Positions 8,841-58,462 are shown, counted from the first letter of the stretch. The stretch: DNA of 60,759 bases from an uncultured virus (IMG/VR IMGVR_UViG_3300024999_000047) (IMGVR_UViG_3300024999_000047); one strand, 5' to 3'. The notes: generated from the sequence alone by a model not told the origin. Program-made: numbers and translations.

Positions 8841-8905
8841 ATCATAACAAAAGATGTAATTCATGCAAACTTACGATCCTGTAAACCCTTATATTACAAT
8901 GGTTT
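8841..8905. repeat. dif/cer-like core site plus 23-bp accessory palindrome
   Basis: ATCATAACAAA agatgtaa TTCATGCAAAC, then AAACCCTTatattacAATGGTTT at 8883. Confidence 0.6.
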
Positions 8906-10357
8906 CGTCAATCGTCAATTTTGGTAAATTTGATATTTTCATGATTTTTGATTAATTTTTCTAAATTTATAAAATTCGTAAACATTTCATTGTATTGTTT
9001 ATGATTTTTACTTTGAAATTCATTATTATTCATATTAATAGGATTCATTTCACAATTCCATGCGTGATTGTTAATATCTTGTAAACAAAATTGACATATT
9101 AGATTATCATTCATTATTTATTATATTTCTCCTTTCTTTTATTATTTATTTTTACTTGTTATCTTTAATTATAATATAATTCCCACAATAACAAAATGTC
9201 ACAGGCTTACCATCATCCACTCTAATAATTACAGGATTAACAATTAATCTTCTACATTTCGGACAATATAATTTACCATTTGCACAAACACCATAATAAT
9301 TTTTTGAATCATTATTCATAATTATAATCTCCTTTTTATGTAATTTAAATTAAATTCAAGAGTCGAAAAAATTATTCCAACAAATTATACAATCATCTTG
9401 ACAATAAAATTTATTCATATCGCAACAATTCCCATTCTTAATTAATTTACTAATAATATTTTGTCTTTCTTTAATCCTTCCTTCTTCCATTTTAATTTCT
9501 ATGTATTTAGTTAGACAATCTTTTTGTTTCATTAGTATTTCATCTCTTGGCATAATTATTTTCCTCCTCCTTTCTATTTAATTTAATAATATCTAATATC
9601 AACATAACACTAATCCATACAATATTTATTAACATTAGAATTATGGTGTATAATTTCATCATTGCAATTCTTACAAATAAATGATGTAAATGCTTGAAGT
9701 GATATTTTATTACTCATATAATAGCAATATTTGCATTGTTGTAATTTGATTCTTGTTGTTTGTTTTGTGTCATTATCATAGTTATATAAATTTTTTCTTA
9801 TTGAATTTACTAATGATTTATTTCTATATGCGTAGTGTTTTGAATCGAATGGCATATTATATTTTCCTTCTCCTTTCTTGTTTATTCTTTAGATTTATTT
9901 TTAATTAAGTATTCAATAGTTTCAAATAAATCTTTAACTAAATAATAATAATCTTCTCTGAGAGATATAAGATAATATCTTAAGCACATTTTTTGGTATT
10001 CACATTTATTATTTTCTTCTGGATGTTCACATTCATAACAATACTCAGTAAAATAAGGGTGTGTTTCATTTATATCTTCTTCAAATATAAATTTTTTAAG
10101 TTTATTAAATTCAGTTAAATCAATTATCATATATTATTTATTCTCCTTTCTTAATCAGTTTGACAAATATGATCCTCTAATAAAACAGTAATCTCTTCTA
10201 ACCATTTACTACATTTTTCTAATTGTTGATTTCTATAATTAGTATCACGATTAGTTGCCATTCTTTTATAAGAATCTGCAATTAAACTAATATTCCTATT
10301 GAAAATTGTTTCTTGTGATTCAGATAGAATACTATTCATATGTTTACTTCTTTCTAA

Positions 10358-10422
10358 ATTAACATAAATGTTTGATTATATACTGTTTTTATGTATTACA
10401 AACCATTATAAATTAAGGATTT
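10358..10422. repeat. dif/cer-like core site plus 23-bp accessory palindrome
   Basis: ATTAACATAAA tgtttgat TATATACTGTT (left arm resembles the XerD arm ATTTAACATAA), then AAACCATTataaattAAGGATTT at 10400. Confidence 0.55.
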
Positions 10423-10646
10423 GTAATTTGATATTTTCTAAATTTACTTAGTTTCATCAAATCTATCTTGCCAACGATAAATAGTATAATTTTCACATCT
10501 TTTATTATTAATTCTAAATGGACAGCAACGCATCGTACAATTTTCACAAGTATCCATATAATTTTTCAGCTCCTTTTTGTTAAATTAAATATTTTATTTA
10601 TGTGTATTATATTTATTATATTACTAATCTATTATAATTGCAAGAA

Positions 10647-11150
10647 TTATTTTCTATTTTTCAAATAATCTTCTCTAAATATTTCATAATGTTTAACATC
10701 ATAATAAATCCCATCGTGAAGTCTTGTAGATTTGCTACTTATACCTATAATTTTACCACCATATTTATCTATGTATTTGTCATACATTTTTTCAATAGGA
10801 TTACCTATTACAACATTAAATTCTATTTTTCTAAAATTATATTTCTCAAATAATTCTTTTAAGAATTGATATAAATCTCTTGAGAATGTTAAATTTTTAT
10901 CATAGAAATTCACAATACCTAAAGATGATACTTTTTCTGATGTTCTTATTATACTTGCTCTGAAAAATCCAATTACATTATCTTGATTATCAACACTAAC
11001 TAATTCAATATCATTCCAAGAATCTTCACTTAGTTTTAAATTGCAATCCCAATAATTACTATAATTATAGAATTTAAATTTATTTTGGAATACTATATTT
11101 TGAAATGTTGATTGTAATTTGTCTTTGTATGTAAATGCTAATTTTAATAT
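10647..11150 (-). CDS. GNAT (RimJ/RimL-like) acetyltransferase, probable ATA start
   Basis: LFEKYNFRKIEFNVVIGNP..YGG....HDGIYYDVKHYEI. SD AGGAG lies 9 nt before ATA at 11150. Confidence 0.7.
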   Translation of the reverse strand: MLKLAFTYKDKLQSTFQNIVFQNKFKFYNYSNYWDCNLKLSEDSWNDIELVSVDNQDNVIGFFRASIIRTSEKVSSLGIVNFYDKNLTFSRDLYQFLKELFEKYNFRKIEFNVVIGNPIEKMYDKYIDKYGGKIIGISSKSTRLHDGIYYDVKHYEIFREDYLKNRK

Positions 11151-11199
11151 AGATGATTTCTCCTTTCTGTGTGAAGTATATTTATTTATATTATTTATT

Positions 11200-12156
11200 T
11201 TATAATTTACTTGCACCAAACATACTCATAATTAACCCTACTCTTACCCACATCCCGTTTTCAACCTGTTCCCAATACTTTGCTCTTTTATCTTTATCAA
11301 CTTCAACACTAATTTCATCTCTTCTAGGAAGTGGATGAAGTATAATTGCATCATTTTTCATTTTGTTTACATTACTACTATTAATACTATATTTACTTGT
11401 ATCTATAATTTCATTTTCATTAATAACTTCGTGTTTATATTCATCTTGCAATCTCACCATATAAACTACATCCATATCAGGCAATACCTTTTCAAAATCA
11501 TCTGTGATTTCATAATCTACATTTAATTGTTCTAATATATCAGATTTAATTTGAAATTGTTTAGGTGAAACAAAATATAATTTAGTACCATTAACTTTAT
11601 TTAATAGTAATGATAACGATCTAACTGTACGTCCTCTTAATAGATCACCTACAAAAGCAACTTTCTTATTTTCTAAACCGTATTTATAGATAGTATAGAA
11701 GTCTAATAATGCTTGTGTGGGATGTTGGTCAGATCCACTTCCTGCATTGATAATTCTTGTTTTATCAGATAGATTATTAGATATTTCATAAATAAAATCT
11801 GAAGATGGATGTCTCATAATAATTAAATCAGAATATTGTGAGAAAGTTTTAATTGCATCTAATTCACTTTCACCTTTAGTTTCTGATGATGTTGATGTAT
11901 CTCTAATTTCAGATGTAGATATTCCTAATATATGACATGCGTTTTGGAAGGATAAAAATGTTCTAGTGCTTGATTGCTTGAAATAAAGCATTGCCCTTTT
12001 ATCTGATAGAATTGTTTTTAGGTATTTTAATCCATCTGAAGTTGATGCAATTGATTTTACTTTATCAGTTGTATCGCATAGATTGAGTAGATTTTCTAGT
12101 GTGTATTGATTAGAGTTAATACATCTTGTTTGATTATTTATGTTGATAGTAAACAC
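11200..12156 (-). CDS. pyrB: aspartate carbamoyltransferase catalytic subunit
   Basis: SSTRT, KGES, MRH, INAGSG..QHPTQALLD, GDL..GRTVRSL, RLQ.E, HPLPR motifs. Confidence 0.92.
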   Translation of the reverse strand: MFTININNQTRCINSNQYTLENLLNLCDTTDKVKSIASTSDGLKYLKTILSDKRAMLYFKQSSTRTFLSFQNACHILGISTSEIRDTSTSSETKGESELDAIKTFSQYSDLIIMRHPSSDFIYEISNNLSDKTRIINAGSGSDQHPTQALLDFYTIYKYGLENKKVAFVGDLLRGRTVRSLSLLLNKVNGTKLYFVSPKQFQIKSDILEQLNVDYEITDDFEKVLPDMDVVYMVRLQDEYKHEVINENEIIDTSKYSINSSNVNKMKNDAIILHPLPRRDEISVEVDKDKRAKYWEQVENGMWVRVGLIMSMFGASKL

Positions 12157-12452: not shown

Positions 12453-12892
12453 TTATATTCTTATTTCATAAGGTGAAACATAAAATACTTCTGGTTTATA
12501 ATCTGCATATGTAACAGTTTTCTTTTGATAATAAATCTTTATATCCCTATCATTTTTAGCAGTTAGCCAATAGTATTTTACGTTGTCACTATATTTAGGA
12601 TCATTAATTCTATACTCTTGTCCTTGTTTAACTTTAATATTTTCTCTAATTATTTGAGTTTTATCAAATTCAACGAACGCACCATAATTACCTATAACAA
12701 TTCTATTGTAACCATTAGAGATTAAAGTGTTTGATAAGGAATATATTTTGAAGTTTATATCACCTTCAATATTTAATTGATTAGGTATATTATCTAAATA
12801 TTTCTGTTTTACTTCTAATAATAATTTTTTATTTAGTTTTTATATTTATATCTTGTTGCTAATAATTCTTGAAATTGTAATAGATTTTCTAT
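12453..12892 (-). pseudogene. Unlisted hypothetical gene with ATA start and an apparent 1-nt frameshift in an A-run at about 12837-12841
   Basis: AGGAGG-8 nt-ATA GAA AAT, then an open frame of about 129 codons (GYNRIVIGNYGAFVEF..YYWLT..VTYADYKP) with no ATG/GTG/TTG. Confidence 0.6.
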
Positions 12893-13756
12893 AGTTTTAT
12901 CCTCCTTTATTTTTTATTTAAATATTAATTTACTCACCTTTCACATATCCTAATTTATCTGCAATTTCAGTAAATAATTCTAAAATTTTATCAATTAACT
13001 CTGGTTGTTGATAAAAGTTATCATCTACTCTTTTATCTGTATTGAGACCTAGTTTAAATTGACATTCTTTACATATAAATAGATTTTTTATTGTTGATAT
13101 ACTAGAGGTATTTACATCACTAACATATTCGTCTTTTCCTATTTTGCCTATCAATAGTTTAATTACCCTAAATTCCGATTCTTCTGATTTATTATAAATT
13201 TTCTCAGTATTACATTTGTCACAAATATGGATTACCTTTTTCATAATTTAATCTCCTTTTATCCTATATTTTTATTTTAATTTAATATTTTAATAATCTA
13301 TATACACATATTTATCCCAACTATATTGTTTATAATTTCTTAATCTAAATTCATCTGCATCTTTAAATCTCATTTTTGCATATTTACAAAATATTTTGTA
13401 TAGTTTTTGTGCTTTGATTCTATTGCCGTTTTCAAATTCGTCTTCCATCCATTGAAGTAATTCAGATAGTTTTAACATATTATTCTCCTTATATAGATTT
13501 ATTTAAATATTTAGTTTATTATATTTGACATATTTATTAATTTCAAATAATAATATTTCTAAAATATCTTCTCTGCCTTTCTTATAATTGCTATCTTGAA
13601 ATAATTCATTTTCTTTGATTAATTTATTTACTATTGATTTTACTCTATTTTTTTCTACAATTCTACCTTCTTCAAATGCTTCTTTTCCATGTCTACTTAA
13701 CATACAACTTAATTCTCCATGACTAATTTCTGCCATACTATAATCTCCTTTCCTAT

Positions 13757-13788
13757 ATCAACACCAATATTTGAATTTTGATTATGAT
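13757..13788. repeat. core-site variant with 10-bp spacer
   Basis: ATCAACACCAA tatttgaatt TTGATTATGAT; arms match those of other sites. Confidence 0.45.
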
Positions 13789-15074: not shown

Positions 15075-15221
15075 TTATTTACTTAATCTCTCCATATCAT
15101 AGTTATCTCTAATATAATCTATTAAATTATTAAGTGATTCTACAATATATTTATCATTTTTTAATCCAGGATGAATTTTTGCTATACAAGAATTTTTTGC
15201 ACCGTTTTGTTTATATTTACT
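15075..15221 (-). pseudogene. Start-less C-terminal remnant of a small gene abutting the TnpB stop
   Basis: Open frame SKYKQNGAKNSCIAKIHPGLKNDKYIVESLNNLIDYIRDNYDMERLSK* with no SD. Confidence 0.5.
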
Positions 15222-16201
15222 TAATATTTACTTGCTTTATGTATGTAATCAGTTATTTTATTATTTCTTTTATTAGTTAATTGTTGAAGTTTATTACTCC
15301 AATTCTTATCATATTTTAATTTTAAATGACTTTGACTATTAGATTTTTCTTTATTATAAAATTGATTCATTGATTTAAGTGGTTTTCCGTTAATTACAAA
15401 TGGTTTTAATCCAATATTATTTCCTACTGTTGCTAAATTGTCTACTCCAATATCTATTCCAATTATATTTACATTATAACTCATTTGTTCAGGAATGTCA
15501 ATCTCATAAACAATTTCCATTACATATGTATCACCTTTTGGTATAAATCTTGTTTGCATTAATTTACCAATAATATTAGTTTTAAAAGTATTATTTAATG
15601 GTTTTAATGGATGAAATGAAAAGAATAAATATCCGTCAATTATTTTTGATTGTACGTTTGTTAAAATTAATTCTTTTCTGCCTTTTTCTTTATGTTTGTA
15701 TTTAGGCAATTTTGGTCTACCTAGATATTTTTCAGGATTTTTACTCCATCCTTTAATACCTGCAAAGAATGATTTCCAATTTTTATCTAATACTTTCAAA
15801 GTTTGTTGTGAACTACTTGAACCTAAATCTATAAATGGTTCACTATATTTTGTAATATAATCTAAAAAATCATATCTACATACTCTATTATTTTTATCAA
15901 AATATTCAAGTGATTTAAATACTTTATCTAAATTTCTTCCTTTGGATTGTTTTATATCTAGATTTTTCAGTTTATTTTTATTATATTCATCCACATTATC
16001 ATTTACCCATTTTAAAAAATCTGATTGTTCTTGTGTAATTTCTTTATTATCTTTCAATAAATTTGTAATAATAAATATTTGCCTTATTATATAATTAGCA
16101 TAATTATAAATATTTTTAGATTTAAAACATAGATTATCTACTATCTTCCAATGTGGATTATTCTTTTTTATTATATGTTGTTCTACTCTATTTGCTTTCA
16201 T
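15221..16201 (-). CDS. tnpB: TnpB/Cas12f-like RNA-guided nuclease family protein, C-terminally truncated
   Basis: Firmicutes TnpB N-terminus (VEQHII..LCFKSKNIYNYANY), NWKSFF, PKLPKY, RuvC-I IIGIDIGVDNLAT, INGKPLKSMNQFYNK and bridge helix DYIHKASK. RuvC-II, zinc finger and RuvC-III are absent. Confidence 0.88.
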   Translation of the reverse strand: MKANRVEQHIIKKNNPHWKIVDNLCFKSKNIYNYANYIIRQIFIITNLLKDNKEITQEQSDFLKWVNDNVDEYNKNKLKNLDIKQSKGRNLDKVFKSLEYFDKNNRVCRYDFLDYITKYSEPFIDLGSSSSQQTLKVLDKNWKSFFAGIKGWSKNPEKYLGRPKLPKYKHKEKGRKELILTNVQSKIIDGYLFFSFHPLKPLNNTFKTNIIGKLMQTRFIPKGDTYVMEIVYEIDIPEQMSYNVNIIGIDIGVDNLATVGNNIGLKPFVINGKPLKSMNQFYNKEKSNSQSHLKLKYDKNWSNKLQQLTNKRNNKITDYIHKASKY

Positions 16202-16237
16202 TTATACTCCTTTATTAATTTAATTTCTTATGAGACT

Positions 16238-16331
16238 GTCATATTTAAATATAGTTAGTTTAAAACGGTAAAAATACATCTTACTTCATAGGAATCTTCC
16301 AGGTCATATTTAAATATAGTTAGTTTAAAAC
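16238..16331 (-). CRISPR. CRISPR-like mini-array: two identical 29-nt repeats and one 36-nt spacer
   Basis: Repeats at 16238-16266 and 16303-16331 read GTTTTAAACTAACTATATTTAAATATGAC (minus). Spacer at 16267-16302 reads CTGGAAGATTCCTATGAAGTAAGATGTATTTTTACC. Confidence 0.8.
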
Positions 16332-16446
16332 TGCATATATAAATTTTAATAAAAGTTTAACTTTTACTGGGTAAGACCCATACCATCTATCTTCTCATGA
16401 ATTTATTCAATTGAAGACTACATTTTTATCGTCAATTATATGACGA

Positions 16447-16542
16447 TAATTTATAAAATGTTCGATTTATTCAAATATTTATTTATCTATATATATATAG
16501 ATATATAGTAGTTGAATAGTTATTACGATACTATATATAGTA
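16447..16542. repeat. core site plus paired TACTATATATAGTA-type boxes
   Basis: TAATTTATAAA atgttcga TTTATTCAAAT; boxes at 16497 and 16529 (32 bp apart). Confidence 0.55.
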
Positions 16543-16555
16543 TGTTTTTAATTAA

Positions 16556-17353
16556 TTAACTAACTTTTAAATCATCTTGATATGTATTAAAATCAATTAT
16601 GAATTTTTTATCTAAAACAACACCGTCTTTTTTATAATATACTTGTTTAATAATCTTTTGTTCATTTTCCCTTTTAGGGTATGTAGATTTTCCCAATAAT
16701 ATATTTATATTCTTATCTAATGTAAAAATGTAAATATGTTGTTTTGAATATATTTTGCTTACATTATTATATATTTCATATAATAATTGATTTGTAGTTT
16801 TTGGTGTATTCTTACCTTCTTTATACTTATGCCATATTTGCACAGCATGTAATACATTTCCATCTAATTCAAAAAAACTATCACTAACTCTATATCCATA
16901 ATATCCCCAATTAGTTGCTTGATATATTGTACCAACATTTCCTTCTTTACCATCGCTAAAAGATAATAGCCATTTTATATGTGGTTTAAATTTTTTTATG
17001 TATTTTATAGATAATCCAATTGCTTGACTTTCACAAAATTTAGGTGCTTCATCTAGCATTGCCATTCTATTTAATTCATACATTTCATTTTTATTACTAT
17101 CTTCTACTAATTTCTGTGGTGTTTTACTAGCATTCATAGGAGTTCCATACTGCAATGCACCAATTAATTCATTATTTGTTTTATCAAAAACTCCTAAATG
17201 TAATTTACTATTTGGAACAACTTTACCACTATAATGATATTTTTTAATTAATTCTTTAGCAATTTTTGCATCTATTTCAGTCATATAATAATTTTTATTT
17301 TCTGTCTTATTTATACTTGACTGCTCTCTCTTTATTATATGTAAATTTTCTAT
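16556..17353 (-). CDS. Mom-like adenine-modification enzyme, GNAT fold (ATA start)
   Basis: IKKYHYS, ELNRM, LLSFSD..GNVGTIYQATNWGYYG. In-frame ATA lies 8 nt after AGGAGG. Confidence 0.85.
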   Translation of the reverse strand: MENLHIIKREQSSINKTENKNYYMTEIDAKIAKELIKKYHYSGKVVPNSKLHLGVFDKTNNELIGALQYGTPMNASKTPQKLVEDSNKNEMYELNRMAMLDEAPKFCESQAIGLSIKYIKKFKPHIKWLLSFSDGKEGNVGTIYQATNWGYYGYRVSDSFFELDGNVLHAVQIWHKYKEGKNTPKTTNQLLYEIYNNVSKIYSKQHIYIFTLDKNINILLGKSTYPKRENEQKIIKQVYYKKDGVVLDKKFIIDFNTYQDDLKVS

Positions 17354-17400
17354 ATTTATTTCCTCCTAACAATTATATTTATATTTTGTTAAAATTTTAA

Positions 17401-17475
17401 AACATGACAAAACGTGGATTTGGTTATGATTTTTGAAAAATTAACACCCTCTAAACCCTTATAAATCAAGGGTTT
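17401..17475. repeat. dif/cer-like core site plus 23-bp accessory palindrome
   Basis: AACATGACAAA acgtggat TTGGTTATGAT, then AAACCCTTataaatcAAGGGTTT at 17453; linker nearly identical to 58415-58448. Confidence 0.7.
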
Positions 17476-17531
17476 AGAAAAATGGTAAATTGTGTAAATT
17501 TATAAATTTTGCTAATTATAAAATAATTTAA

Positions 17532-18553: not shown

Positions 18554-19414
18554 TTAATAATTCGTAATCAAAACTTCCATTGTCGTACTATCATTCTTAT
18601 CTACTCTCTGATAATTTGCATTGCCATATTTAACATCTAAATTATGTACATTATATTTCTTATCCTTAACCCATTCTTTCAATATATCATTTGATTCACC
18701 TTTACTCTCTAATACATTTGATAATGCAAATCTAACACCATTATCATTTAGTTTATCAAGTAAATTTAATAAATCTTTTTCATCTTTTTCTTTCCATCCG
18801 CCTTTTTCATTATATGTAGCACATGTGATTAAATAAGGCGGATCAATATAGCAAAAATCTGAATCGGTTAAATAACTAATGTCTACTTCTCTAAAATCTA
18901 AATTTGTGAATTCCATATTTATATCTTGCAAATAATTTACAAACTTAATCAAATTATCTTTCATAGTAGAATTAAATGTTCGCTTACCAAATGGTAAATT
19001 AAATTCTCTTTTTGAATTGAATCTAATTTGATTACTAAATGAATGACATATTAATGTGTAGAAATATTCCCATTCTTTATTTACGTGATTATAATATTCT
19101 CTTAATTTAAGATAGTTTTCTTGATTATCTTTTGATAGATTAAATTTTTTTATTATTGATTCTATTTGATAAATAATATGTTCAGTACCTAATAAATAAA
19201 AATTATCATATAGATTGATCACTTCTTCAATGGTATCATTGCATATAATTTTATTTGCTTTAACGTTAACTGCAACATTACATCCACCACAAAACAAATC
19301 AATGAATGTATCTATATTGTCAGGGAATAGTGGTAGAATTTGAGGAAGTAATTTATATTTACCTCCGACATAGTTTAAAGGCGATTTTATTAAGTTTTGT
19401 TTTGTGAATTCTAT
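18554..19414 (-). CDS. dam: Dam-type (D12) DNA adenine methyltransferase (ATA start)
   Basis: In-frame extension KSPLNYVGGKYKLL..DLFCGG; FCYIDPPY; ALSN; EVLITNY. AGGAGG lies 9 nt before ATA at 19414. Confidence 0.9.
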   Translation of the reverse strand: MEFTKQNLIKSPLNYVGGKYKLLPQILPLFPDNIDTFIDLFCGGCNVAVNVKANKIICNDTIEEVINLYDNFYLLGTEHIIYQIESIIKKFNLSKDNQENYLKLREYYNHVNKEWEYFYTLICHSFSNQIRFNSKREFNLPFGKRTFNSTMKDNLIKFVNYLQDINMEFTNLDFREVDISYLTDSDFCYIDPPYLITCATYNEKGGWKEKDEKDLLNLLDKLNDNGVRFALSNVLESKGESNDILKEWVKDKKYNVHNLDVKYGNANYQRVDKNDSTTMEVLITNY

Positions 19415-19447: not shown

Positions 19448-19477
19448 ATTTGAATAAATCTTAAAATTGGTTACGAT
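19448..19477. repeat. dif/cer-like core site
   Basis: ATTTGAATAAA tcttaaaa TTGGTTACGAT; the stop codon of gene 19471..19887 lies within the right arm. Confidence 0.6.
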
Positions 19478-36764: not shown

Positions 36765-36878
36765 GATTTATTCCTTCTTTCTATATTGTTTATATGTTTA
36801 TGTTTTAATTTATATTTACTTTCTATATATGTAGTATACAATTATTTTTATGTTCTGTCAAGATAAATTTTACCTAAT

Positions 36879-37058
36879 ATTGTGACCAAATTCAGATTTT
36901 ATCATGATATCTATATTGATAGTTTAAATTTTGGTAAATTAGTGCTTGTAAAGTATTGAATTATAAGGGTTTACAAGCACTAATTATGGAAATATTGAAA
37001 AATCTATATTTTTAGGTATTTTTGCCATGTTTGAATGAAACAGGCATTTTATCATGTT
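36879..37058. repeat. 180-bp twin-core element 1 (core - palindrome - core)
   Basis: ATTGTGACCAA attcagat TTTATCATGAT; 23-bp palindrome at 36950-36972; GTTTGAATGAA acaggcat TTTATCATGTT. Confidence 0.7.
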
Positions 37059-39452: not shown

Positions 39453-39542
39453 ATCATGATAAAACCAAAATTTGGTGTCGATTTTTAATAAATTTTATCT
39501 ATATATGGTATGTATTTAGTTGAATAACTACTATATGTAGTA
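39453..39542. repeat. core site plus paired TACTATATATAGTA-type boxes
   Basis: ATCATGATAAA accaaaat TTGGTGTCGAT; boxes at 39497 and 39529 (32 bp apart). Confidence 0.7.
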
Positions 39543-39550
39543 TATAGTTA

Positions 39551-41056: not shown

Positions 41057-41292
41057 ATTGACATAAAAGCGATGTTTGGTCACGATATTATTTTATATTA
41101 TTAAATTCTCATTTTAAAGTGTCTCTAAACACTTGTATTATAAGGGTTTATAAGCACTTTATTAATAAATAACAATAAGATTACGATATTACGTAATAAT
41201 TCCCATATTGTGATAAAACGAATCTTTCGTTCAAACTTAATTTTACTACCATATATAGTGGTTAATTAGTTTTCTCGCTACTATATATGGTA
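41057..41292. repeat. 180-bp twin-core element 2 (41057-41236) followed by paired TACTATATATAGTA-type boxes
   Basis: ATTGACATAAA agcgatgt TTGGTCACGAT; palindrome 41127-41149; ATTGTGATAAA acgaatct TTCGTTCAAAC; boxes at 41247 and 41279. Confidence 0.7.
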
Positions 41293-42787: not shown

Positions 42788-42815
42788 ATTAATTATTCTC
42801 CTTTTTATATTAATA

Positions 42816-43993: not shown

Positions 43994-44095
43994 AATTAAT
44001 TTCTCCTTTTTAATTTATTTTTTTATCTACAATTATATTACCATTTTGTTATTAGTATGTCAAGGTTTATTTTCATCAATTTATTAAAATTAAAA

Positions 44096-44125
44096 GTTTG
44101 AATAAAAGACATAATTTATTAAATT
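44096..44125. repeat. dif/cer-like core site (weaker)
   Basis: GTTTGAATAAA agacataa TTTATTAAATT, abutting the stop of gene 44125..44643. Confidence 0.45.
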
Positions 44126-45319: not shown

Positions 45320-45446
45320 TTCATGACCAAACCTTTTGATTTTGTGTTGATTTTTTGGATTTTTGGTTTGATTATCTTCTGTTTTCGAGTGTATACTTCC
45401 ATTTTCATGTTAAGGATTGTTAAGATTATGTTAAGATAGTGTTAAG
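45320..45446. repeat. core-site variant (10-bp spacer) plus four phased TGTTAAG repeats
   Basis: TTCATGACCAA accttttgat TTTGTGTTGAT; TGTTAAG at 45408, 45418, 45429, 45440. Confidence 0.55.
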
Positions 45447-45916: not shown

Positions 45917-46453
45917 TTAATATTTTAAGATATTTCTTAAATGATAATAAAATGTTGCCCAAATATATAATCCGCTATATTGATTATTAGGCATAAACAT
46001 AATATTAATATTATAACGATTAGCAAAACTATGAAGACTTCCTAAATATGATTTTTTATTATATTCAGTTTTATAATTACCATTACAAATATCTTCATAA
46101 TTTGCATTTTCAATTAAAAGATACATTTTACCTTTATGAAGAATAAATTCTTTCTCAAATCTATCTCTTTGTTGAGAAAAGTTTCCACTTAATTCTTCTA
46201 AAGACATTTTTCTTTCTATAACTATTTCCTTATCAAAATATAAATCTCTATTAATTGATAATTCATCATTTTTAGGTAGAAAAAAACTATAATCTCCTTT
46301 ATCTAATCCTTTTATAATATATTTAATTTTCTTTTTATCAAAATATTCAATAATATGTTCACATGATTTTTCTCTTGTATCTATAATTATTGTGATTGAT
46401 GATAATAATTCTTGTTGTTGTTTATCTGTATATTTATAATTACTTATATTTAT
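45917..46453 (-). CDS. ERCC4/XPF-domain nuclease, probable ATA start
   Basis: In-frame extension IIIDTREK..LDKGDYS..VIERKMSLEELSGN; ATA lies 7 nt after GGAGG at the dnaE stop. Confidence 0.8.
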   Translation of the reverse strand: MNISNYKYTDKQQQELLSSITIIIDTREKSCEHIIEYFDKKKIKYIIKGLDKGDYSFFLPKNDELSINRDLYFDKEIVIERKMSLEELSGNFSQQRDRFEKEFILHKGKMYLLIENANYEDICNGNYKTEYNKKSYLGSLHSFANRYNINIMFMPNNQYSGLYIWATFYYHLRNILKY

Positions 46454-49400: not shown

Positions 49401-49530
49401 CATGTTCAGAAAAACATATTGCTTTTTGACCTAATTCTACTGCTTTATCTACATATAATTTAAAATTAGTGCATGAATCTAGTAAACTTAATTCTGTATG
49501 TAAATGATAGACTACATAATTTTTTTTCAT
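46453..49530 (-). CDS. dnaE: DNA polymerase III alpha subunit
   Basis: PHP domain HLHTELSLLD/EHG, RGSVGGS, FSRF, DIDVD, HPAG, KYDILGL, QE, NHSTGY. Confidence 0.96.
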   Translation of the reverse strand: MKKNYVVYHLHTELSLLDSCTNFKLYVDKAVELGQKAICFSEHGNIYNNIEKKMYCEKNNIKYIHGVEIYLTETFNEKIRDNYHTILISRNFEGVKELNRLIDISTQEDHFYYKNRISFDEFLNISNNIICISACLASPINKLSENNPYYEKLLNKYDYYEIQPHINSEDQKKYNKKLYELSIKYCKPLICGTDTHALNTYKEECRSILQKSKKIEYGDEDKYDLTYKSYEELVEMFKQQNALPEHVYLEAINNTNIMSNSINEYDLDLSFKYPKLYDNEEEVLKKLINKKYKYKVSQKIIPQNNIYKNNILEEFRVFKKIGMIGFMLFMSELMTWCRDNNIPFGNCRGSVGGSTVAYILDIIDLDPVKWKTVFSRFVNEDRIEIGDIDVDFSPSQRELVYNYIIERFGIDYTSYILAIGTMAEKRTIDNIGRALNLPIPFVAKIKEEYEKNPEETKLKYPDIFYYFEGLVNTAESQSMHPAGIIASPILLTDYYGTIWKDNKRILCINMEEVHEVSLVKYDILGLKNIEIIKDTCELIGTPYPLSHEINWDDKNVWDDIITSPVAIFQFEGSFAFDLLKKYIPLKINDLSLVNACLRPSGASYRDRLIAREFNKNPSILIDNLLKDNNGFLVFQEDVIAFLQQICGLSGSEADNVRRAIGRKQKDRIDEALPKILEGYCGKSDKPRNESELEAKEFLDIIESASSYMFGYNHSTGYSMIGYLCGYYRYYHPLEFITAYLNNANNEDDIRDGTELAKLKNIKISPIKFRYSKAKYFPDKETNTIYKGIGSIKFCNDNNGSKLYELRGNQYNSFYDAMKDILSTGINSKQLDILVKLDFFSEFAKSKKILRFIELYNIISSAKQLSKDKVTKFNINTEIITKYSRQTEKKFILSDNIKILEELWEEIPNKNINIKERIQTEVEYLGYPETKSNAILEEYAMVININTKYKNPVITLYEINNGNTEIIKVKKKQFDSNPFKLYDVIKTKERKRENKWKKTEDGFEMINEKENILSSWTIVKSKEEEM

Positions 49531-50750
49531 AATCCAATCACTTTTTGTTTAATTATTTCTTCTATAGATCCACCTCTATTTAATTTTTGCCATATATATT
49601 TATAATTTAAATTTAAATTTTTACATAATTCATGCAATTTAATATATTCATTATTATATTTTACATATAAAATTTTTTGTTCTTTAGATATATTTTTTTC
49701 TATAATTTTATTTTTAATTATATCTAATTCATTAGGAATATTTCTTAATAATATATCATCTATTTTACGTGACGAATTTGCATCAAATAATAAATATCTT
49801 TTATCTTTCTTTTGTTTAGCAAACAAATCAAACTTATTTTTAAATATATCTAAAGCTAAATTTATATCTTCATCTGTGTATTCTGCAACACATAATTCCC
49901 AATTAGAATTACTTCTATATCCATCGTCTAATATCCAAATTGAAAATGAAAATTCATTCATTAAATTTAATAAATATGTATATGTTTTACCTCTATATTC
50001 TAATAAGCAATCATGAATTCTTGTGCATAATCTATATGTTGCTTGACATAAATATAATTTACCTTTAAATTCTTTGTATGCTGGTTCTTGTCTTGTTGGT
50101 GATATATTACAAAATTCTTTCAATAATTTATATTTATAATATAAATAATCTTTTTGATCTTCTGCATGACTTACAATAAATATGGGTTGAGTTTCTCGTT
50201 TATCAATATGTCCATCACCTAACATTGAACCAACAATTAAATCTTTTTGCTTTTCATTTAACTGTTTATTAACTTGTCTATATTCTTGAGTTAATCTATG
50301 TCTTTCAGTACACCATTTTTCAATTACTCTTTTCGTACAATTTGCTTCTTTTGCCATCTCATCATGACTTAATCCTTCATTTATGTATTTTTGATAACAC
50401 CAATCGTAATCTTGGTATATTGATTTATAATTCATACTGTTTTTATATTTAGTATTTAAATTCATTCTTTTAACTTTACTTGTGATCGCAGTAATAGTTT
50501 TATTTAATATATTTTTTATTTCTTTATATGGGGTTACTTTTTCTATTAATTCAATTAATATATCTTCCTCTTCAGATGACCAATATATTTTTTTATTAAT
50601 AACAATATTAGGTTGCGAGGAGTCAATTATTTTTCCATGATTTTTTAGTTGTAAATAATGTTTATTACAAAGATTATTACCATACTTACTATTTTTATTA
50701 AATCTTGAAGTGTCTAATTCTGAAATATTACATATACTACAATATTCCAT
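49527..50750 (-). CDS. free-standing LAGLIDADG homing endonuclease
   Basis: IVGSMLGDGHI and SIWILDDGY motifs; N-terminal CxxC..CxxH and HTH-like segments. Confidence 0.85.
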   Translation of the reverse strand: MEYCSICNISELDTSRFNKNSKYGNNLCNKHYLQLKNHGKIIDSSQPNIVINKKIYWSSEEEDILIELIEKVTPYKEIKNILNKTITAITSKVKRMNLNTKYKNSMNYKSIYQDYDWCYQKYINEGLSHDEMAKEANCTKRVIEKWCTERHRLTQEYRQVNKQLNEKQKDLIVGSMLGDGHIDKRETQPIFIVSHAEDQKDYLYYKYKLLKEFCNISPTRQEPAYKEFKGKLYLCQATYRLCTRIHDCLLEYRGKTYTYLLNLMNEFSFSIWILDDGYRSNSNWELCVAEYTDEDINLALDIFKNKFDLFAKQKKDKRYLLFDANSSRKIDDILLRNIPNELDIIKNKIIEKNISKEQKILYVKYNNEYIKLHELCKNLNLNYKYIWQKLNRGGSIEEIIKQKVIGL

Positions 50751-56672: not shown

Positions 56673-56714
56673 AAGTAATCTCCTTTTATTTAATATTTAT
56701 TATTTTATTAAATC

Positions 56715-56733: not shown

Positions 56734-56737
56734 AATT

Positions 56738-57955
56738 TTATTCTAAATCTAAATCCATATCAGCAAAAATGTCTTCATCATTATTATCATTGGATTTATT
56801 ATCTTTCTTAATTTCTAATGGTTTAACAATAAAATCATCTGTATTATACAATGTATCTTTACGTCCTTTTGTATATCCTTTTGCTACATTTACTATTACC
56901 ATTTCTGAAATTCTATCTCCGTATAAGGGTGTGTCTCCCATTTCTTTTCTAATATCATCAAGAGTAATAGCACCTAATTCAAGAAGTTCTTTTTGTGTTT
57001 CATCAAGCATATCAGGAGTAATTTCAACTTTTTGTGAACCATCTAAAATCTTAATCTTAACACCAATTTCTTTCCATGTTTTATCTTTAACAGTGAATTG
57101 TTTTTCAAATAAATTATTTAATTTTTTATTTGCTTCATTAGTTTCATCTTTTGATGTATCTAAAACTAATGTTACAGGGCAACCAATAGTTTCTTTTCTA
57201 GTATTATCATATTCCCTAATATATGTATTGATATTTATTTTATTAGTTTTACTGAGTAAGCTTTTATCAACACTATCTTTATTAAAAAATACTGTCAATT
57301 GTCCTGTAGATGTAGGGATAGCATCTTTTTCAACAAGATAAATCCTTGATGGTACATATTTTCTATAATATTTGCCTGTTTTATCTGAATATTGATAAAC
57401 TATATTGCCTAATACTTTAAATAATCTATTGTCTACTTTACCAGAAGAAATAACTTTATATAAATATTCAGTATAATCAGATTCAGCAATAAATTCTTTT
57501 CTTTTCTTTCTGCTATTTTCAATTTCTGTATTTATATCTTCAACATTTAATTCTTCTATGTCTTTTTCTGATGCAGTACCATCTAATATTCTTTCTAATT
57601 TATATCTTCTTCCATATTCTTCTAAATCAATAACAAATTTTTTAAACTCTGCAACTTTTTCTACTTCTTTTGGATTGAATCTATTCTTCCATAATATTTC
57701 TAGTTTTTCACCTTTTATTTGATTGCCTTCTGCATCTTTGCCACCTTTTGAAAAAGTATATATTTTACCTTCTCCGTTAGCAAAATAACCACCTTTAGAT
57801 TCAAGCATGTGACGATTATCTCCTGCAACAACATTAAAAAGTAATTTATTATTAGTCCATCCACTAGGGTAACTTTCTGTAGTATAAGGTTTAAATTTTT
57901 CAGATTCTTTACCTATTGATAATTTACCAACAAATTCAAATGTATTATTTGCCAT
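56738..57955 (-). CDS. putative single-stranded DNA-binding protein
   Basis: NTFEFVGKL OB-like start, acidic C-terminal tail, heads the replication operon. Confidence 0.6.
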   Translation of the reverse strand: MANNTFEFVGKLSIGKESEKFKPYTTESYPSGWTNNKLLFNVVAGDNRHMLESKGGYFANGEGKIYTFSKGGKDAEGNQIKGEKLEILWKNRFNPKEVEKVAEFKKFVIDLEEYGRRYKLERILDGTASEKDIEELNVEDINTEIENSRKKRKEFIAESDYTEYLYKVISSGKVDNRLFKVLGNIVYQYSDKTGKYYRKYVPSRIYLVEKDAIPTSTGQLTVFFNKDSVDKSLLSKTNKININTYIREYDNTRKETIGCPVTLVLDTSKDETNEANKKLNNLFEKQFTVKDKTWKEIGVKIKILDGSQKVEITPDMLDETQKELLELGAITLDDIRKEMGDTPLYGDRISEMVIVNVAKGYTKGRKDTLYNTDDFIVKPLEIKKDNKSNDNNDEDIFADMDLDLE

Positions 57956-58043
57956 ATGTATAATCTAATCTCCTTTTAATTTATATTTTTATTTTTACAA
58001 TCTGTATATTTATTTAATAGTTAACTATTAAACTCACTAAATT

Positions 58044-58328
58044 CTATTCTTCATCCTCATTATCACCTTCATCATCTTCAATAAGCCTTAAACTTCCTTC
58101 TTGCATTTCAACCACAGACCAAGTTTCTTTATGTTTGCCATCACTAGGAATAAATTCAATTTCTACTTTTTCAGGTTTAGCACCTTTCAATTTAGTTATA
58201 TTACCTTTTTTTAACTCTCCATTCTCGGTAATAAATCTAATTCTATCTCCTTCAGAAATAGTTTGTAATTCATCTGTACTAGTTTTTACTTCAATAGATT
58301 CATACGGTACTTTTATAATTTCTACCAT
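58044..58328 (-). CDS. hypothetical protein
   Basis: 94-aa ORF with SD. Confidence 0.6.
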   Translation of the reverse strand: MVEIIKVPYESIEVKTSTDELQTISEGDRIRFITENGELKKGNITKLKGAKPEKVEIEFIPSDGKHKETWSVVEMQEGSLRLIEDDEGDNEDEE

Positions 58329-58387
58329 AAATAAATCATTTCTCCTTTTCTTTTTAAATTTTATCTTAAATTTAATTTAAAACCCAA

Positions 58388-58462
58388 GCTTGAATAAAAT
58401 ATTCCATTGATGCTGATTTTTAGAAAATTAACACCCTCTAAACCCTTAATTTATAGAGGTTT
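58388..58462. repeat. dif/cer-like core site plus 23-bp accessory palindrome
   Basis: GCTTGAATAAA atattcca TTGATGCTGAT, then AAACCCTTaatttatAGAGGTTT at 58440. Confidence 0.7.

What the first reader, a model, noticed from the sequence alone, without database searches (positions are those of the whole stretch)
8841..58462. Dispersed family of dif/cer-like recombination sites partitioning the accessory region
Seen: about 13 sites, intergenic or at gene ends, with the layout 11-bp arm ending AA(A), variable 8-bp core (10 bp in two), 11-bp arm starting TT. Starts: 8841, 10358, 13757, 16447, 17401, 19448, 36879, 37029, 39453, 41057, 41207, 44096, 45320, 58388 (10358, 16447 and 44096 are weaker). 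Arms come from two or three recurring types (ATCRTGAYMAA, TTTGAATRAA, ATYRACAYMAA) in mixed pairings, and every core differs. Known: this is the geometry of tyrosine-recombinase sites (dif, cer, loxP); one arm type resembles the XerD arm ATTTAACATAA. Inference: a phage gene-cassette capture/shuffling system analogous to integrons or pdif modules. No recombinase gene is visible in this window.
Basis: partly seen in the sequence, partly recalled or inferred. Interest (0 to 1): 0.9.

Follow-up and report, generated by a model that had tools for sequence, protein, structure and literature searches.

The report
Barcoded dyad sites at phage module junctions
A large groundwater phage and its relatives carry dozens of 30-bp mirror-image DNA sites, each with its own central "barcode", between gene modules; they look like docking sites for a recombination enzyme that swaps gene cassettes between related phages, though a purely regulatory role is not excluded.

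Summary
With a matrix trained on relatives, 9 of the 14 listed sites rank in the window's top 10 at an 8-bp core. Two more (13757, 45320) are the two best at a 10-bp core. 44096 is borderline; 10358 and 16447 fail. A window-trained matrix finds the family in five related phage contigs only at core = 8 (for example 19 found against 3.0 expected). It is absent from a Clostridioides phage with the same replication-gene order.

The motif is really 12-6-12: AATCRTGAYMAAA-N6-TTTKRTCAYGATT. Sites are intergenic and follow conserved hairpins. They lie a median of 17 nt before the next ribosome-binding site.

Central spacers are unique within each genome. They are GC-enriched and better conserved between orthologous sites than the arms. 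In a close relative, five sites recur in the window's order (three with identical spacers, two diverged), with different genes in three of the four intervals. One spacer (ACGAATCT) joins four different downstream modules in four lineages.

One relative that carries 25 sites encodes a Xer-like tyrosine recombinase; the window does not.

My best reading (about 0.42) is recombinase core sites with site-specific spacers, resembling dif modules. The main rival (about 0.30) is operators inside terminator-promoter cassettes.

The parts
8841..8870 (.). dyad site, 11-8-11, core AGATGTAA
   Evidence: rank 6 in the window with the relative-trained matrix, 17.7 bits; ribosome-binding site follows on the minus strand
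13757..13788 (.). dyad site with a 10-bp core (ATCAACACCAA / TATTTGAATT / TTGATTATGAT)
   Evidence: 24.3 bits, rank 2 among core-10 positions; fails at core 8
17401..17430 (.). dyad site, core ACGTGGAT, upstream of the Mom-like gene
   Evidence: rank 3, 24.7 bits; class-1 hairpin at about 17451-17477 on its sense-upstream side
19448..19477 (.). dyad site (B-type left arm ATTTGAATAAA), upstream of the Dam methylase gene
   Evidence: rank 5, 19.7 bits; a similar arm accompanies the Dam gene at another location in G012
36879..36908 (.). dyad site, core ATTCAGAT; 17 nt upstream (sense) of a TTGACA-17-TATACT promoter at 36861-36833
   Evidence: rank 1, 25.2 bits; promoter; G012 counterpart at 459
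36941..36981 (-). class-1 hairpin (contains AAACCCTTATAA) between sites 37029 and 36879
   Evidence: repeat D15 with 41101-41158; sequence
37029..37058 (.). dyad site (B-type left arm), core ACAGGCAT
   Evidence: rank 8, 13.6 bits; in G012 the left arm and core are replaced while the flanking sequence is near-identical
39453..39482 (.). dyad site, core ACCAAAAT, with a long AT-rich class-2 hairpin on its sense-upstream side (about 39497-39548)
   Evidence: rank 2, 25.0 bits; conserved island in G012 1471-1605 with unrelated genes on both sides
41057..41086 (.). dyad site, core AGCGATGT, upstream of the DUF5662 gene
   Evidence: rank 4, 22.9 bits; same spacer once in G012 at 4433 and in no other of 111 loci
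41207..41236 (.). dyad site, core ACGAATCT, next to a class-2 hairpin (about 41248-41291) and the NAMPT gene
   Evidence: rank 7, 16.6 bits; the same core occurs in 4 lineages with 4 different modules on its other side
44096..44125 (.). borderline dyad site
   Evidence: 7.9 bits, rank 15; TTGACA promoter about 40 nt downstream in sense
45320..45351 (.). dyad site with a 10-bp core (TTCATGACCAA / ACCTTTTGAT / TTTGTGTTGAT)
   Evidence: 24.7 bits, rank 1 among core-10 positions
58388..58417 (.). dyad site (B-type left arm), core ATATTCCA, with a class-1 hairpin at about 58435-58462
   Evidence: rank 10, 12.0 bits; in 7 other distinct relative sequences that carry the site the core is kept (one variable end position) while both arms change
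   Evidence: 4.0 bits, right arm -2.9
   Evidence: 0.1 bits; lies upstream of a TnpB-like gene

Best explanation
The sites are core recombination sites of the dif/cer/lox kind. Each has two 12-bp imperfect inverted arms (AATCRTGAYMAAA, with a GTTTGAATAAA variant) that would bind a tyrosine recombinase. The arms flank a 6-8-bp central spacer where strands would be exchanged.

Each site has its own spacer. Sites within one genome therefore cannot recombine with each other, but a site can recombine with the same-spacer site of a co-infecting relative. Two such exchanges at neighbouring sites would replace the module between them, as proposed for dif modules of Acinetobacter plasmids. A module would be [arm - ribosome-binding site or promoter - gene(s) - hairpin].

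The likely enzyme is the Xer-like recombinase encoded by this phage clade, or the host's Xer.

Shown: the family, its strict geometry, spacer behaviour, junction position, and presence of the recombinase in one relative.

Inferred: binding, cleavage at the spacer edges, and exchange.
For: 1. Geometry. Enrichment is far strongest at core = 8 in the window and in five relatives. The conserved motif extends to 12-6-12, with invariant AA and TT next to the centre.

2. Spacer behaviour.
- No two spacers match within any of the site lists of the window and G002-G005.
- The central 6 bp is 39% GC, against 20% in the flanks and 26% in the arms.
- In the 7 non-identical site pairs with both flanks homologous, the core is 53/56 identical and the arms 125/154.

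3. Site 58388. Seven other distinct relative sequences carry the site; they keep the core and change both arms, including swaps between A-type and B-type arms.

4. Relative G012. Five counterpart sites lie at 459, 609, 1513, 4424 and about 5371, in the order of the window's 36879, 37029, 39453, 41057 and 41207.
- Three spacers are identical. With their inner arm bases, two were found in no other of 111 loci and the third in no other of 241.
- Three of the four intervals hold different DNA.
- A Dam gene lies between AGCGATGT and ACGAATCT, where the window has a 120-nt hairpin spacer.

5. The ACGAATCT site in four lineages (window, a metagenome variant, G012, L134). The core and the hairpin side are constant. 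There are four different opposite arms and four different downstream modules. The break falls at the arm/core edge.

6. Other breaks at arm/core edges: win 58388 vs G003, G002 58837 vs L024, win 41207 vs G005 39741.

7. Homology ends in intergenic DNA: 37 within site +/-10 nt against 17.4 expected from distance to ORFs. Controls: TTGACA promoters 21 vs 16.1; hairpin 1, 1 vs 1.9.

8. Recombinase. G003 carries 25 sites and a 282-aa tyrosine recombinase. Its sequence shows motifs that I read by eye as the R..HxxR..H..Y catalytic residues.
- Pfam Phage_integrase, 105 bits.
- NCBIfam XerA/XerC/XerD-like at 1e-41 to 1e-43, below the curated cut-offs.
- Nearest solved chains are XerA, XerD and XerH.
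- 18 further viral contigs carry homologues.

9. Literature.
- difH half-sites are printed as AGTTATGAAAA and AAAAGTTTGA, and difSL repeats as TTTCCGAAAA and TTTTCTTGAAA (review PMC5357621, passages). They share ATGA.AAA and GTTTGA with the two arm types here.
- pdif sites have AT-rich arms and GC-rich 6-bp spacers. In the cases the authors examined, the rearranging pdif sites had identical or near-identical spacers (PMC13141974, passages).
Against: - No recombinase in the window, nor in G002, G004, G005, G006 or ten more fragments. All of these are incomplete.
- No site lies next to the recombinase gene. Contigs covering that part of the genome have sites at background: G007 1 vs 1.5, G008 3 vs 2.1, G009 0 vs 1.3, G010 3 vs 1.7.
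- Position looks regulatory. A hairpin motif lies upstream in 37/75 sites. A ribosome-binding site lies downstream in 57/75, with median gap 17 nt and lower quartile 6 nt. Seven sites sit exactly 7-8 nt before a TTGACA box; two of the seven are orthologues.
- 426 of 463 intergenic homology ends are not at sites.
- The 4.3-kb indel seen in metagenome contigs is not a simple product of two window sites. The second junction has another arm and flank, and the two window sites have different cores.
- Some changes are arm-only or arm-plus-core patches between conserved flanks (win 37029 vs G012 609; right arm of the ACGAATCT site). A single crossover does not explain these.
- Two sites have 10-bp cores.
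- No same-spacer pair occurs within a genome, and no inversion is seen.
- The statistics on orthologues rest on few independent families: 7 pairs from 4 families.
Confidence: 0.42

Rival explanations
1. The sites are operators of a phage-encoded dimeric DNA-binding regulator. They form part of composite intergenic cassettes (hairpin/terminator - dyad - promoter or ribosome-binding site) that control early and accessory genes. Modules break at them only because such cassettes are the conserved islands between genes, where homologous or microhomology recombination joins unrelated modules, as proposed for PeSL cassettes of T4-like phages.
For: - All supported sites are intergenic and lie on the 5' side of genes.
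- The 65 nt upstream in sense fold more stably than the 65 nt downstream: -8.67 vs -4.78 kcal/mol, Wilcoxon p = 4e-5. Hairpin motifs lie upstream in 37/75 sites and downstream in 8/75.
- About 16 of 98 sites have a strong TTGACA promoter 0-45 nt downstream, 7 of them at +7/+8. None is oriented antisense outside the site.
- Sites are confined to the one-strand early/replication arm and are missing from the late and recombinase region.
- Arms are symmetric in 57/75 sites.
- Joints at promoters occur in metagenome contigs (44021->36832, 45303->36810).
- PeSLs are described as composite terminator/promoter motifs that mediate shuffling by homologous recombination (PMC4122927, abstract).
Against: - An operator's spacer should not be unique, GC-enriched and better conserved than its arms between orthologues.
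- Arms change type (A to B) while the spacer stays.
- Most sites (about 82 of 98) have no strong promoter nearby, and a quarter abut the ribosome-binding site within 6 nt.
- No HTH-type regulator was found among the 98 window ORFs at E <= 0.01.
- TTGACA promoters and hairpin 1, the longer conserved repeats, are not enriched for homology ends (21 vs 16.1; 1 vs 1.9), whereas the dyads are.
Confidence: 0.3
2. The sites are promoters of a phage-specific class (middle genes). The right arm would act as an extended -10 element (TRT-YAYRAT) and a B or TTGACA-like left arm as the -35 element. They would be read by host RNA polymerase with a phage factor.
For: - Site 8841 on the gene strand reads TTTGCA-17-TATGAT with TG upstream.
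- The A-type arm ends in YAYGAT, with A at position 2 and T at position 6.
- Position 15-60 nt before start codons fits.
- In paired cassettes the first site is followed directly by ATGG... and two hairpins, like a small RNA gene.
Against: - B arms lie on either side relative to gene direction (10 BA, 8 AB), so half of the -35/-10-like pairs would fire antisense into a one-strand gene array.
- Only one sense-strand promoter call lies entirely within a site (offset -29; 3 on the antisense strand) among 98 sites.
- Several sites abut the ribosome-binding site so closely that a start 7 nt after the arm would remove it.
- A conserved spacer is not expected in a promoter.
Confidence: 0.07
3. The sites serve another DNA transaction. 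Examples are targets of one of the phage's many homing or nicking endonucleases, nucleoid- or partition-type protein arrays, or replication-related sites. Under this reading the junction pattern is a by-product of breakage and repair there.
For: - The window encodes at least 8 HNH, LAGLIDADG or NUMOD endonuclease-like proteins.
- Patchy replacement of arm plus core between conserved flanks resembles repair from an ectopic template.
Against: - Homing endonucleases have single long asymmetric targets inside conserved genes, not about 25 dyads per 100 kb in spacers.
- No origin-like clustering is seen.
- Nothing ties any of these proteins to the motif.
Confidence: 0.1
4. The pattern is a chance product of AT-rich intergenic DNA.
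For: The window is 23.8% GC, and degenerate AT-rich consensus sequences match often. Two of the 14 listed sites do fail.
Against: - Strongest enrichment by far at core = 8 in six separate sequences.
- 0 of 100 shuffles reach the observed count.
- Orthologous conservation.
Confidence: 0.01

Closest known systems
dif modules bounded by pdif (XerC/XerD) sites in Acinetobacter plasmids
   Same: - Many dif-like sites lie in the accessory region.
- AT-rich 11-bp arms flank short, GC-richer spacers that differ from site to site.
- Modules are replaced between sites whose spacers match on the left and on the right (PMC13141974, passages; PMC6449649, search listing only).
- Here the same spacers recur in the same order in the window and G012 with different cargo between them.
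   Different: - A phage, not a plasmid.
- Arms are mostly symmetric (57/75 A-A), so there is no XerC-side/XerD-side alternation and no C or D modules.
- The spacing is 8 (or 12-6-12), not 11-6-11.
- No two identical spacers occur within a genome, and there are no inversions.
- The enzyme would be a phage-encoded single Xer-like protein (unproven) rather than host XerCD.
- Sites sit tightly in front of ribosome-binding sites and behind conserved hairpins.
Single-recombinase Xer sites (difH/XerH, difSL/XerS, archaeal dif/XerA) and cer (11-8-11)
   Same: - Two imperfect inverted arms of 10-11 bp with A/T runs next to a 6-11-bp centre.
- The printed half-sites share ATGA.AAA and GTTTGA with the A and B arms: difH AGTTATGAAAA and AAAAGTTTGA; difSL TTTCCGAAAA and TTTTCTTGAAA.
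- cer has an 8-bp centre (review PMC5357621, passages).
- The clade recombinase is nearest to XerA, XerD and XerH among solved chains.
   Different: - Those systems have one site per replicon. For XerS and XerH it lies next to the recombinase gene, and the system resolves dimers.
- Here there are about 20-25 sites per 100 kb, none lies next to the gene, and every site has a different centre.
PeSL (promoter-early stem-loop) cassettes of T4-like phages
   Same: Small composite intergenic cassettes with a stem-loop, repeated through the plastic regions of a large phage, at which unrelated genes are joined (PMC4122927, abstract; PMC2839356, search listing and start of abstract).
   Different: - A PeSL is a sigma-70 promoter plus terminator, and exchange is by homologous recombination over the conserved cassette.
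- Here the repeated unit is a degenerate dyad that is not itself a sigma-70 promoter, with a unique conserved spacer.
- Breaks fall at the arm/spacer edge.
- The TTGACA promoters themselves are not enriched for breakpoints.
Integron cassettes (attI/attC with IntI)
   Same: Compact modules with the ORF start close to the 5' boundary and a structured element at the 3' end of the preceding module; a tyrosine recombinase of the wider Xer-like group.
   Different: - No attC-type long imperfect hairpin carries the crossover.
- The arms do not pair with each other and do not co-vary.
- No integron-type integrase was found: the G003 recombinase matches integron-integrase models only weakly and below their cut-offs.
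- There is no single attI and no common promoter.

Membership tests
Xer/dif-type tyrosine-recombinase core site | two about 11-bp imperfectly inverted binding arms | tested here: met
   Half-site counts from 60 sites of relatives (120 half-sites): A83 T106 C75 A70 T73 G43/A41 A117 C69/T50 A57/C47 A120 A120.
Xer/dif-type tyrosine-recombinase core site | fixed 6-8-bp central region between the arms | tested here: met
   Enrichment is far strongest at core = 8 in six sequences. A at +11 and T at +18 allow a 12-6-12 reading. Two exceptions have 10 bp.
Xer/dif-type tyrosine-recombinase core site | a cognate tyrosine recombinase in the same replicon or host | tested here: inconclusive
   Present in G003, which has 25 sites. 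Absent from the window and 14 other fragments. The host is unknown.
Xer/dif-type tyrosine-recombinase core site | strand exchange at the edges of the central region | not testable with these tools
   Only indirect evidence: comparative breakpoints at arm/core edges in several pairs.
Xer/dif-type tyrosine-recombinase core site | one site per replicon, next to the gene in XerS/XerH systems, acting in dimer resolution | tested here: not met
   About 20-25 sites per 100 kb. No site at 12 bits or more at core 8 within about 3.5 kb of the recombinase gene.
dif modules (pdif) | several dif-like sites partitioning the accessory region | tested here: met
   junction cases.
dif modules (pdif) | distinct XerC and XerD arms, with sites alternating in orientation (C and D modules) | tested here: not met
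   57/75 sites have two A-type arms. B arms lie on either side with no alternation.
dif modules (pdif) | rearrangement between sites with identical or near-identical spacers | tested here: inconclusive
   The same spacers flank different cargo in the window and G012. No identical spacers occur within a genome. No event was observed directly.
PeSL cassette | a strong sigma-70 early promoter fused to a stem-loop terminator | tested here: not met
   The dyad itself is not a sigma-70 promoter. A strong promoter follows only about 16 of 98 sites. The hairpins lack a T-run, judged by inspection of the sequences.
Integron | attC hairpin sites and an IntI-type integrase | tested here: not met
   The arms do not co-vary as a stem. 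The G003 recombinase scores 58 bits on the integron-integrase model against a cut-off of 265.
Operator array of a global regulator | dyad sites at fixed positions relative to promoters | tested here: inconclusive
   7 of 98 sites lie at +7/+8 from a -35 box; most have no strong promoter.

The most novel reading that the evidence does not exclude
This would be a natural version of recombinase-mediated cassette exchange in a virus. Each module junction of the phage's accessory arm carries a lox/dif-like site whose unique spacer acts as an address. A phage Xer-like enzyme could then swap modules between co-infecting relatives only at matching junctions, reshuffling cargo while keeping gene order and preventing self-deletion.
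Probability: 0.35. Interest if true: 0.9.

Novelty: new variant of a known kind. Interest (0 to 1): 0.72.

Why it matters
Phage genomes are mosaics, but the joints are usually put down to rare illegitimate or homologous recombination followed by selection. A dedicated, addressable site-specific system would be a new mechanism of phage evolution. It would parallel dif modules and integrons in plasmids and chromosomes.

It would also supply a ready-made set of mutually incompatible recombination sites with a small recombinase, which is useful for genome engineering.

If the sites turn out to be operators, they still define a large regulon and an unusual cassette grammar (hairpin - dyad - promoter or ribosome-binding site) in an uncultured clade of roughly 190-kb groundwater phages. 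The size is inferred from completeness estimates of 57-71% for contigs of 106-143 kb.

The spacer-conservation result is directly testable at the bench.

Tried and rejected
- Nucleotide search of phage records with the polymerase region: no match.
- The window's own assembly is not held, so relatives were used instead.
- Rfam and tRNA scans of the window: nothing.
- Arms as an RNA or DNA stem: the arms do not co-vary in the orthologues of 58388. Rejected.
- A dif-like sequence seen beside the G003 recombinase gene is only the upstream part of a TTGACA promoter and is not conserved in other contigs. Rejected.
- Clostridioides phage LIBA6276 has the same dnaE-recJ-primase-helicase order. Only 100 of its 134 kb were scanned: 3 vs 0.7 in the first 50 kb (two of the three inside annotated genes, by my check against the table) and 0 vs 1.5 in the next 50 kb. 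Its XerC/XerD-family protein is only 24% identical to the G003 recombinase.
- Distant contig G011 (recombinase 53% identical): weak signal only, 6 vs 1.9 and 2 vs 0.28.
- Aligning the 45320 intergenic region with G005: not alignable.
- Sequencing runs: no RNA holder is listed; only contigs of groundwater and soil metagenome DNA runs could be laid. These cannot show circles, transcript ends or expression. Only 15 of 103 joints were shown.
- A 15-letter probe for the ACGAATCT site in viral contigs gave mostly chance hits; one relevant contig (L134) was used. The probe for AGCGATGT found only G012 among relatives.
- Spacer probes for 17401 and 8841 found only the near-identical record G001 (plus one chance in-gene match); the probe for 45320 found nothing.
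- Earlier findings of this scan: three look-ups, all empty.

Full report
**What the window is.** The window is 23.8% GC with strong strand skew. Essentially all genes lie on the minus strand. It encodes a replication block and many other functions:
- DnaE-type polymerase (46453-49530), RecJ, primase, DnaB-like helicase and Sak4-like protein.
- Anaerobic ribonucleotide reductase, dUTPase, ThyX, and NAMPT plus ribose-phosphate pyrophosphokinase.
- Several DNA methylases and a Mom-like protein.
- Many HNH, LAGLIDADG or NUMOD endonuclease-like proteins and a TnpB-like ORF.

By polymerase similarity (about 45% amino-acid identity) and gene order, its nearest cultured relatives are large Clostridioides difficile phages such as LIBA6276. 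The DNA is held by groundwater metagenome runs.

The relatives used are IMG/VR contigs:
- G001: the same phage, 99.85% identical over window 4306-28832.
- G002: 106 kb, mosaic, 75-90% nucleotide identity in patches.
- G003 (143 kb) and G004 (97 kb): more distant.
- G005: 42 kb, collinear with the window but lacking window 36.8-44.9 kb.
- G012: 27 kb, a close relative.
- Smaller fragments.

- In the window, 10 positions reach 12 bits at core = 8 against 1.5 expected from 20 dinucleotide shuffles.
- In G002, which was not used for training, the count is 19 against 3.0 (14 vs 1.0 at 14 bits; 8 vs 0.3 at 16 bits).
- All other spacings are much lower, although a few exceed expectation about twofold (core 4: window 7 vs 2.6, G002 8 vs 3.1).
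- G003 (25 vs 4.5), G004 (15 vs 2.5) and G005 (8 vs 1.1) behave the same way; there I tested cores 6-10.
- The tool's own consensus scan of the window gives 8 matches against 1.19 expected, and no shuffle of 100 reaches 8. Four of the 8 are listed sites; the other four are 3-mismatch hits.

I then built a matrix from 60 sites of relatives, leaving out the window and G012.
- Nine listed sites rank 1-8 and 10 of all window positions.
- 44096 is borderline; 10358 and 16447 fail.
- 13757 and 45320 fail at core 8 but are the two best positions in the window at core 10, at 24.3 and 24.7 bits.

The second matrix derives from sites found with the first one, so it is not fully independent. The enrichment in untrained genomes is the independent control.

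**Anatomy.**
- A at -2 in 68/75 sites.
- AA at positions 9-10 in 75/75.
- A at position 11 in 61/75 and T at position 18 in 63/75.
- TT at positions 19-20 in 75/75.
- T at position 31 in 70/75.

It therefore reads as 12-6-12, AATCRTGAYMAAA-N6-TTTKRTCAYGATT.

A second arm type (R)TTTGAAYRAA makes up 18 of 150 arms. It lies on either side relative to gene direction (10 and 8 sites) and never on both sides. With 12% B arms, about one B-B site would be expected, so zero says little.

On the gene strand the sites follow conserved hairpins.
- One class contains AAACCCTTGATTTATAAGGGTTT.
- The other is a long AT-rich palindrome around TACTACATATAGTA.
- A hairpin motif lies within 100 nt upstream in 37/75 sites and downstream in 8/75.
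- The upstream 65 nt fold more stably than the downstream 65 nt: -8.67 vs -4.78 kcal/mol, p = 4e-5.

Downstream, 57/75 sites have a ribosome-binding site plus start codon within 150 nt. The gap from site to ribosome-binding site has a median of 17 nt and a lower quartile of 6 nt.

About 16 of 98 unique intergenic sites are followed within 45 nt by a strong TTGACA-type promoter. Seven of these lie at exactly +7 or +8 nt; two of the seven are orthologues.

Some sites come in pairs about 150 nt apart, with two hairpins between them: 37029/36879, 41207/41057, and counterparts in G002, G003, G005 and G012.

Sites are missing from the plus-strand late region of G002 and from contigs covering the recombinase region: G007 1 vs 1.5, G008 3 vs 2.1, G009 0 vs 1.3, G010 3 vs 1.7. 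In the 100 of 134 kb of LIBA6276 that I scanned there is no enrichment in the syntenic replication half (0 vs 1.5). The three hits in the late half (vs 0.7) lie at record positions of which two fall inside annotated genes.

**The spacer is the odd part.**
- Within each listed genome, every spacer is different.
- The central 6 bp is 39% GC, against 26% in the arms and 20% in the flanks.
- Between orthologous sites the spacer is kept better than the arms.

For site 58388, seven other distinct relative sequences carry the site. Together with the window they share W-GGAATAT on the gene strand, while both arms change at most degenerate positions and even switch between A and B type. The arms do not co-vary as a stem. 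Five further distinct sequences have no site there.

Among all non-identical site pairs from different contigs with both 60-nt flanks homologous, there are 7 pairs from 4 families. In these the core is 53/56 identical and the arms 125/154, and all three core differences are at an end position. Pairs with one homologous flank mostly agree: G003 87452/G004 37779 8/8, G003 133196/G018 12000 8/8, G002 82079/G003 128565 7/8, G002 95446/G004 59886 7/8.

There are exceptions. Window 36879 vs G012 459 is 5/8. Window 37029 vs G012 609 is 4-5/8, and there the left arm and core are replaced between near-identical flanks. The sample of independent families is small.

**Junction behaviour.**

*G012.* G012 has counterparts of window sites 36879, 37029, 39453, 41057 and 41207, in that order and on the same strand, at 459, 609, 1513, 4424 and about 5371.
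- The three spacers ACCAAAAT, AGCGATGT and ACGAATCT, taken with their inner arm bases, each occur once in G012. The last two were found in no other of 111 loci and the first in no other of 241.
- The DNA between the sites differs in three of four intervals.
- Between AGCGATGT and ACGAATCT the window has 120 nt of hairpins, whereas G012 has a Dam methylase gene.
- That gene's window homologue lies at 18.5-19.5 kb behind site 19448. Its upstream arm in G012 (TTTTGAATAAA) resembles that of 19448 (ATTTGAATAAA), so the arm seems to travel with the gene.

*The ACGAATCT site* is now seen in four lineages: the window; contigs of two groundwater runs (joint 36867->41215, skipping 4347 bases with 27 other letters between; depth 43 and 104); G012; and contig L134.
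- The spacer and the hairpin side are constant.
- The opposite arm has four versions.
- Four different things follow it: a hairpin spacer, a promoter, the Dam gene, or another gene.

*Other pairs* break at an arm/spacer edge: win 58388 vs G003 137806, G002 58837 vs L024, win 41207 vs G005 39741, G003 137806 vs L018.

*Genome-wide*, I compared 15 contigs all against all, keeping alignments of at least 150 nt and below 99% identity. This gave 1095 collapsed alignment ends, of which 463 are intergenic.
- 37 fall within a site +/-10 nt, against 16.7 expected from length and 17.4 after correcting for distance to the nearest ORF.
- Beyond 40 nt from an ORF the figures are 20 against about 4.5.
- The same test gives 21 vs 16.1 for TTGACA promoters and 1 vs 1.9 for hairpin 1.
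- The ends are not independent, because one event is seen in several genome pairs.
- 426 of 463 intergenic ends are elsewhere.

**A recombinase.** None of the 98 window ORFs scanned matches a recombinase family.

Pfam Phage_integrase finds one gene in 5 records: G003, at 105 bits. It finds none in 10 further fragments.
- The protein is 282 aa. Its sequence shows motifs that I read by eye as the catalytic R, HxxR, H and Y.
- It scores 1e-41 to 1e-43 on XerA, XerC and XerD models, below their curated cut-offs.
- It is nearest to XerA, XerD and XerH among solved structures.
- Eighteen further viral contigs carry homologues at 53-88% identity.

G003 thus holds both the enzyme and 25 sites. However, no site lies near the gene, and a dif-like string beside it proved to be an unconserved promoter flank. 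All contigs are fragments (CheckV estimates of 8-71% complete), so absence elsewhere says little.

**Weighing the readings.**

*A directional promoter* is unlikely. The arm types lie in both orientations in a one-strand gene array. Few sites score as promoters. Several abut the ribosome-binding site.

*An operator of a dimeric regulator* explains the position (hairpin - dyad - promoter or ribosome-binding site) and the restriction to the early arm. With PeSL-type homologous exchange (PMC4122927, abstract) it could also explain junctions. It does not explain:
- a unique, GC-enriched spacer that outlasts its arms;
- breaks at spacer edges;
- why the longer conserved repeats (promoters, hairpin 1) are not breakpoint-enriched.

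*A tyrosine-recombinase core site* explains:
- the strict spacing;
- the long half-sites with A/T runs next to a 6-8-bp centre;
- the spacer behaviour;
- the junction pattern.

The close packing of ribosome-binding sites or -35 boxes 5-8 nt beyond the arm fits compact modules equally well.

The printed difH and difSL half-sites share ATGA.AAA and GTTTGA with the two arm types (PMC5357621, passages). The dif-module literature describes what is seen here between the window and G012: modules replaced between sites whose spacers match on each side, and GC-rich spacers between AT-rich arms (PMC13141974, passages).

Against the recombinase reading:
- The enzyme-site link is unproven.
- No same-spacer pair or circle is seen.
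- The 4.3-kb indel is not a simple two-site product.
- Arm-only patches need another process.
- Two sites have 10-bp spacers.

I put the recombination-site reading at about 0.42, the operator/PeSL-like reading at about 0.30, a promoter at 0.07, another DNA transaction at 0.10, and chance at 0.01. The rest is unassigned. The readings are not exclusive.

**Novelty.** I searched papers for PeSL and phage, for phage plus dif-like plus tyrosine recombinase plus intergenic plus mosaic, for difH/XerH, and for pdif/dif modules. None listed a dispersed dif-like site family in a phage genome. These are four word searches of open-access text, not proof of absence.

If the best reading holds, this is a new variant of the dif-module and integron idea:
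- viral;
- with symmetric arms;
- with one unique spacer per junction;
- probably using a phage-encoded single Xer-like enzyme.

**Limits.**
- ORFs were called by simple rules.
- Relatives are fragments from a few related samples.
- Shuffles were 10-20 per test.
- Orthologue counts rest on few families.
- Read laying gave contigs only and showed 15 of 103 joints.

Noticed in passing
window 19412-19414; 17285-17370; 37778-37830; 12880-12929: Several DNA-modification genes (Dam, Mom-like, N6/N4 methylase) and one other ORF seem to begin at ATA a few bases after a strong AGGAGG box (the recurring string is AGGAGG-N7-ATAGAA). The conserved N-terminal residues lie upstream of the first ATG/GTG/TTG. 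This may be a weak start codon used to throttle these enzymes.
   Followed up: no
window 15221-16555: A TnpB-like ORF (OrfB_IS605, E = 3.6e-15). The 354-nt region upstream holds two direct copies of TTTTAAACTAACTATATTTAAATATGAC. The gene is 75.7% identical in nucleotides to one in the otherwise distant contig G011, so it is probably a mobile IS200/IS605-type element.
   Followed up: partly
window 37065-37777: An N6/N4 DNA methylase is split into two overlapping ORFs: 37283-37777 matches the N-terminal part of PF01555 and 37065-37298 the C-terminal part. This is a frameshift, or a programmed one.
   Followed up: no
window 36909-37028, 41087-41206; G003 133226-133344; G002 78589-78707: Between paired dyad sites lie two conserved hairpins. 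One is ATGGGTAAAAT...ATTTTACCCAT, directly after the first site; the other is the AAACCCTT hairpin. The layout resembles a small RNA gene of about 110 nt. There is no Rfam match.
   Followed up: partly
window 59580-60746: A 388-aa protein with a poly(ADP-ribose) polymerase catalytic domain (PF00644, E = 4e-25) lies at the head of the replication arm.
   Followed up: no
window 41312-43685: NAMPT and ribose-phosphate pyrophosphokinase lie side by side (an NAD salvage pair). Nucleotide comparison finds no counterpart of this region in the close relative G012.
   Followed up: partly
window 411-1847, 5493-6707, 20862-22280, 28704-30077, 49527-50750, 58656-59162: There are at least eight homing-endonuclease-like genes (HNH, NUMOD, LAGLIDADG, AP2). 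One sits between the polymerase and RecJ genes. Paralogues are 62-78% identical in nucleotides within the window.
   Followed up: no
window 8373-8632, 27468-27539, 36833-36861, 44035-44063, 45527-45555, 58329-58655: Canonical strong promoters (TTGACA-17-TATAAT, often after AAAAATAATTG) are a separate repeated element. In metagenome contigs some joints fall just downstream of them (44021->36832, 45303->36810).
   Followed up: partly
window 11200-12156: An aspartate/ornithine carbamoyltransferase-like gene (both Pfam domains, E about 1e-31), unusual for a phage.
   Followed up: no
whole window: Strong strand asymmetry on the plus strand (T 26909 vs A 19411; C 9264 vs G 5175), matching the one-strand gene array.
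   Followed up: no
G003 (L040 2571-2864, plus strand): A 97-aa ORF is transcribed divergently from the Xer-like recombinase gene. Its N-terminus (MMISFRLNRKNDNELISLL...MSEFIRNVLRN) looks like a ribbon-helix-helix DNA-binding protein, so it is a candidate regulator. It was not scanned against any family library.
   Followed up: no
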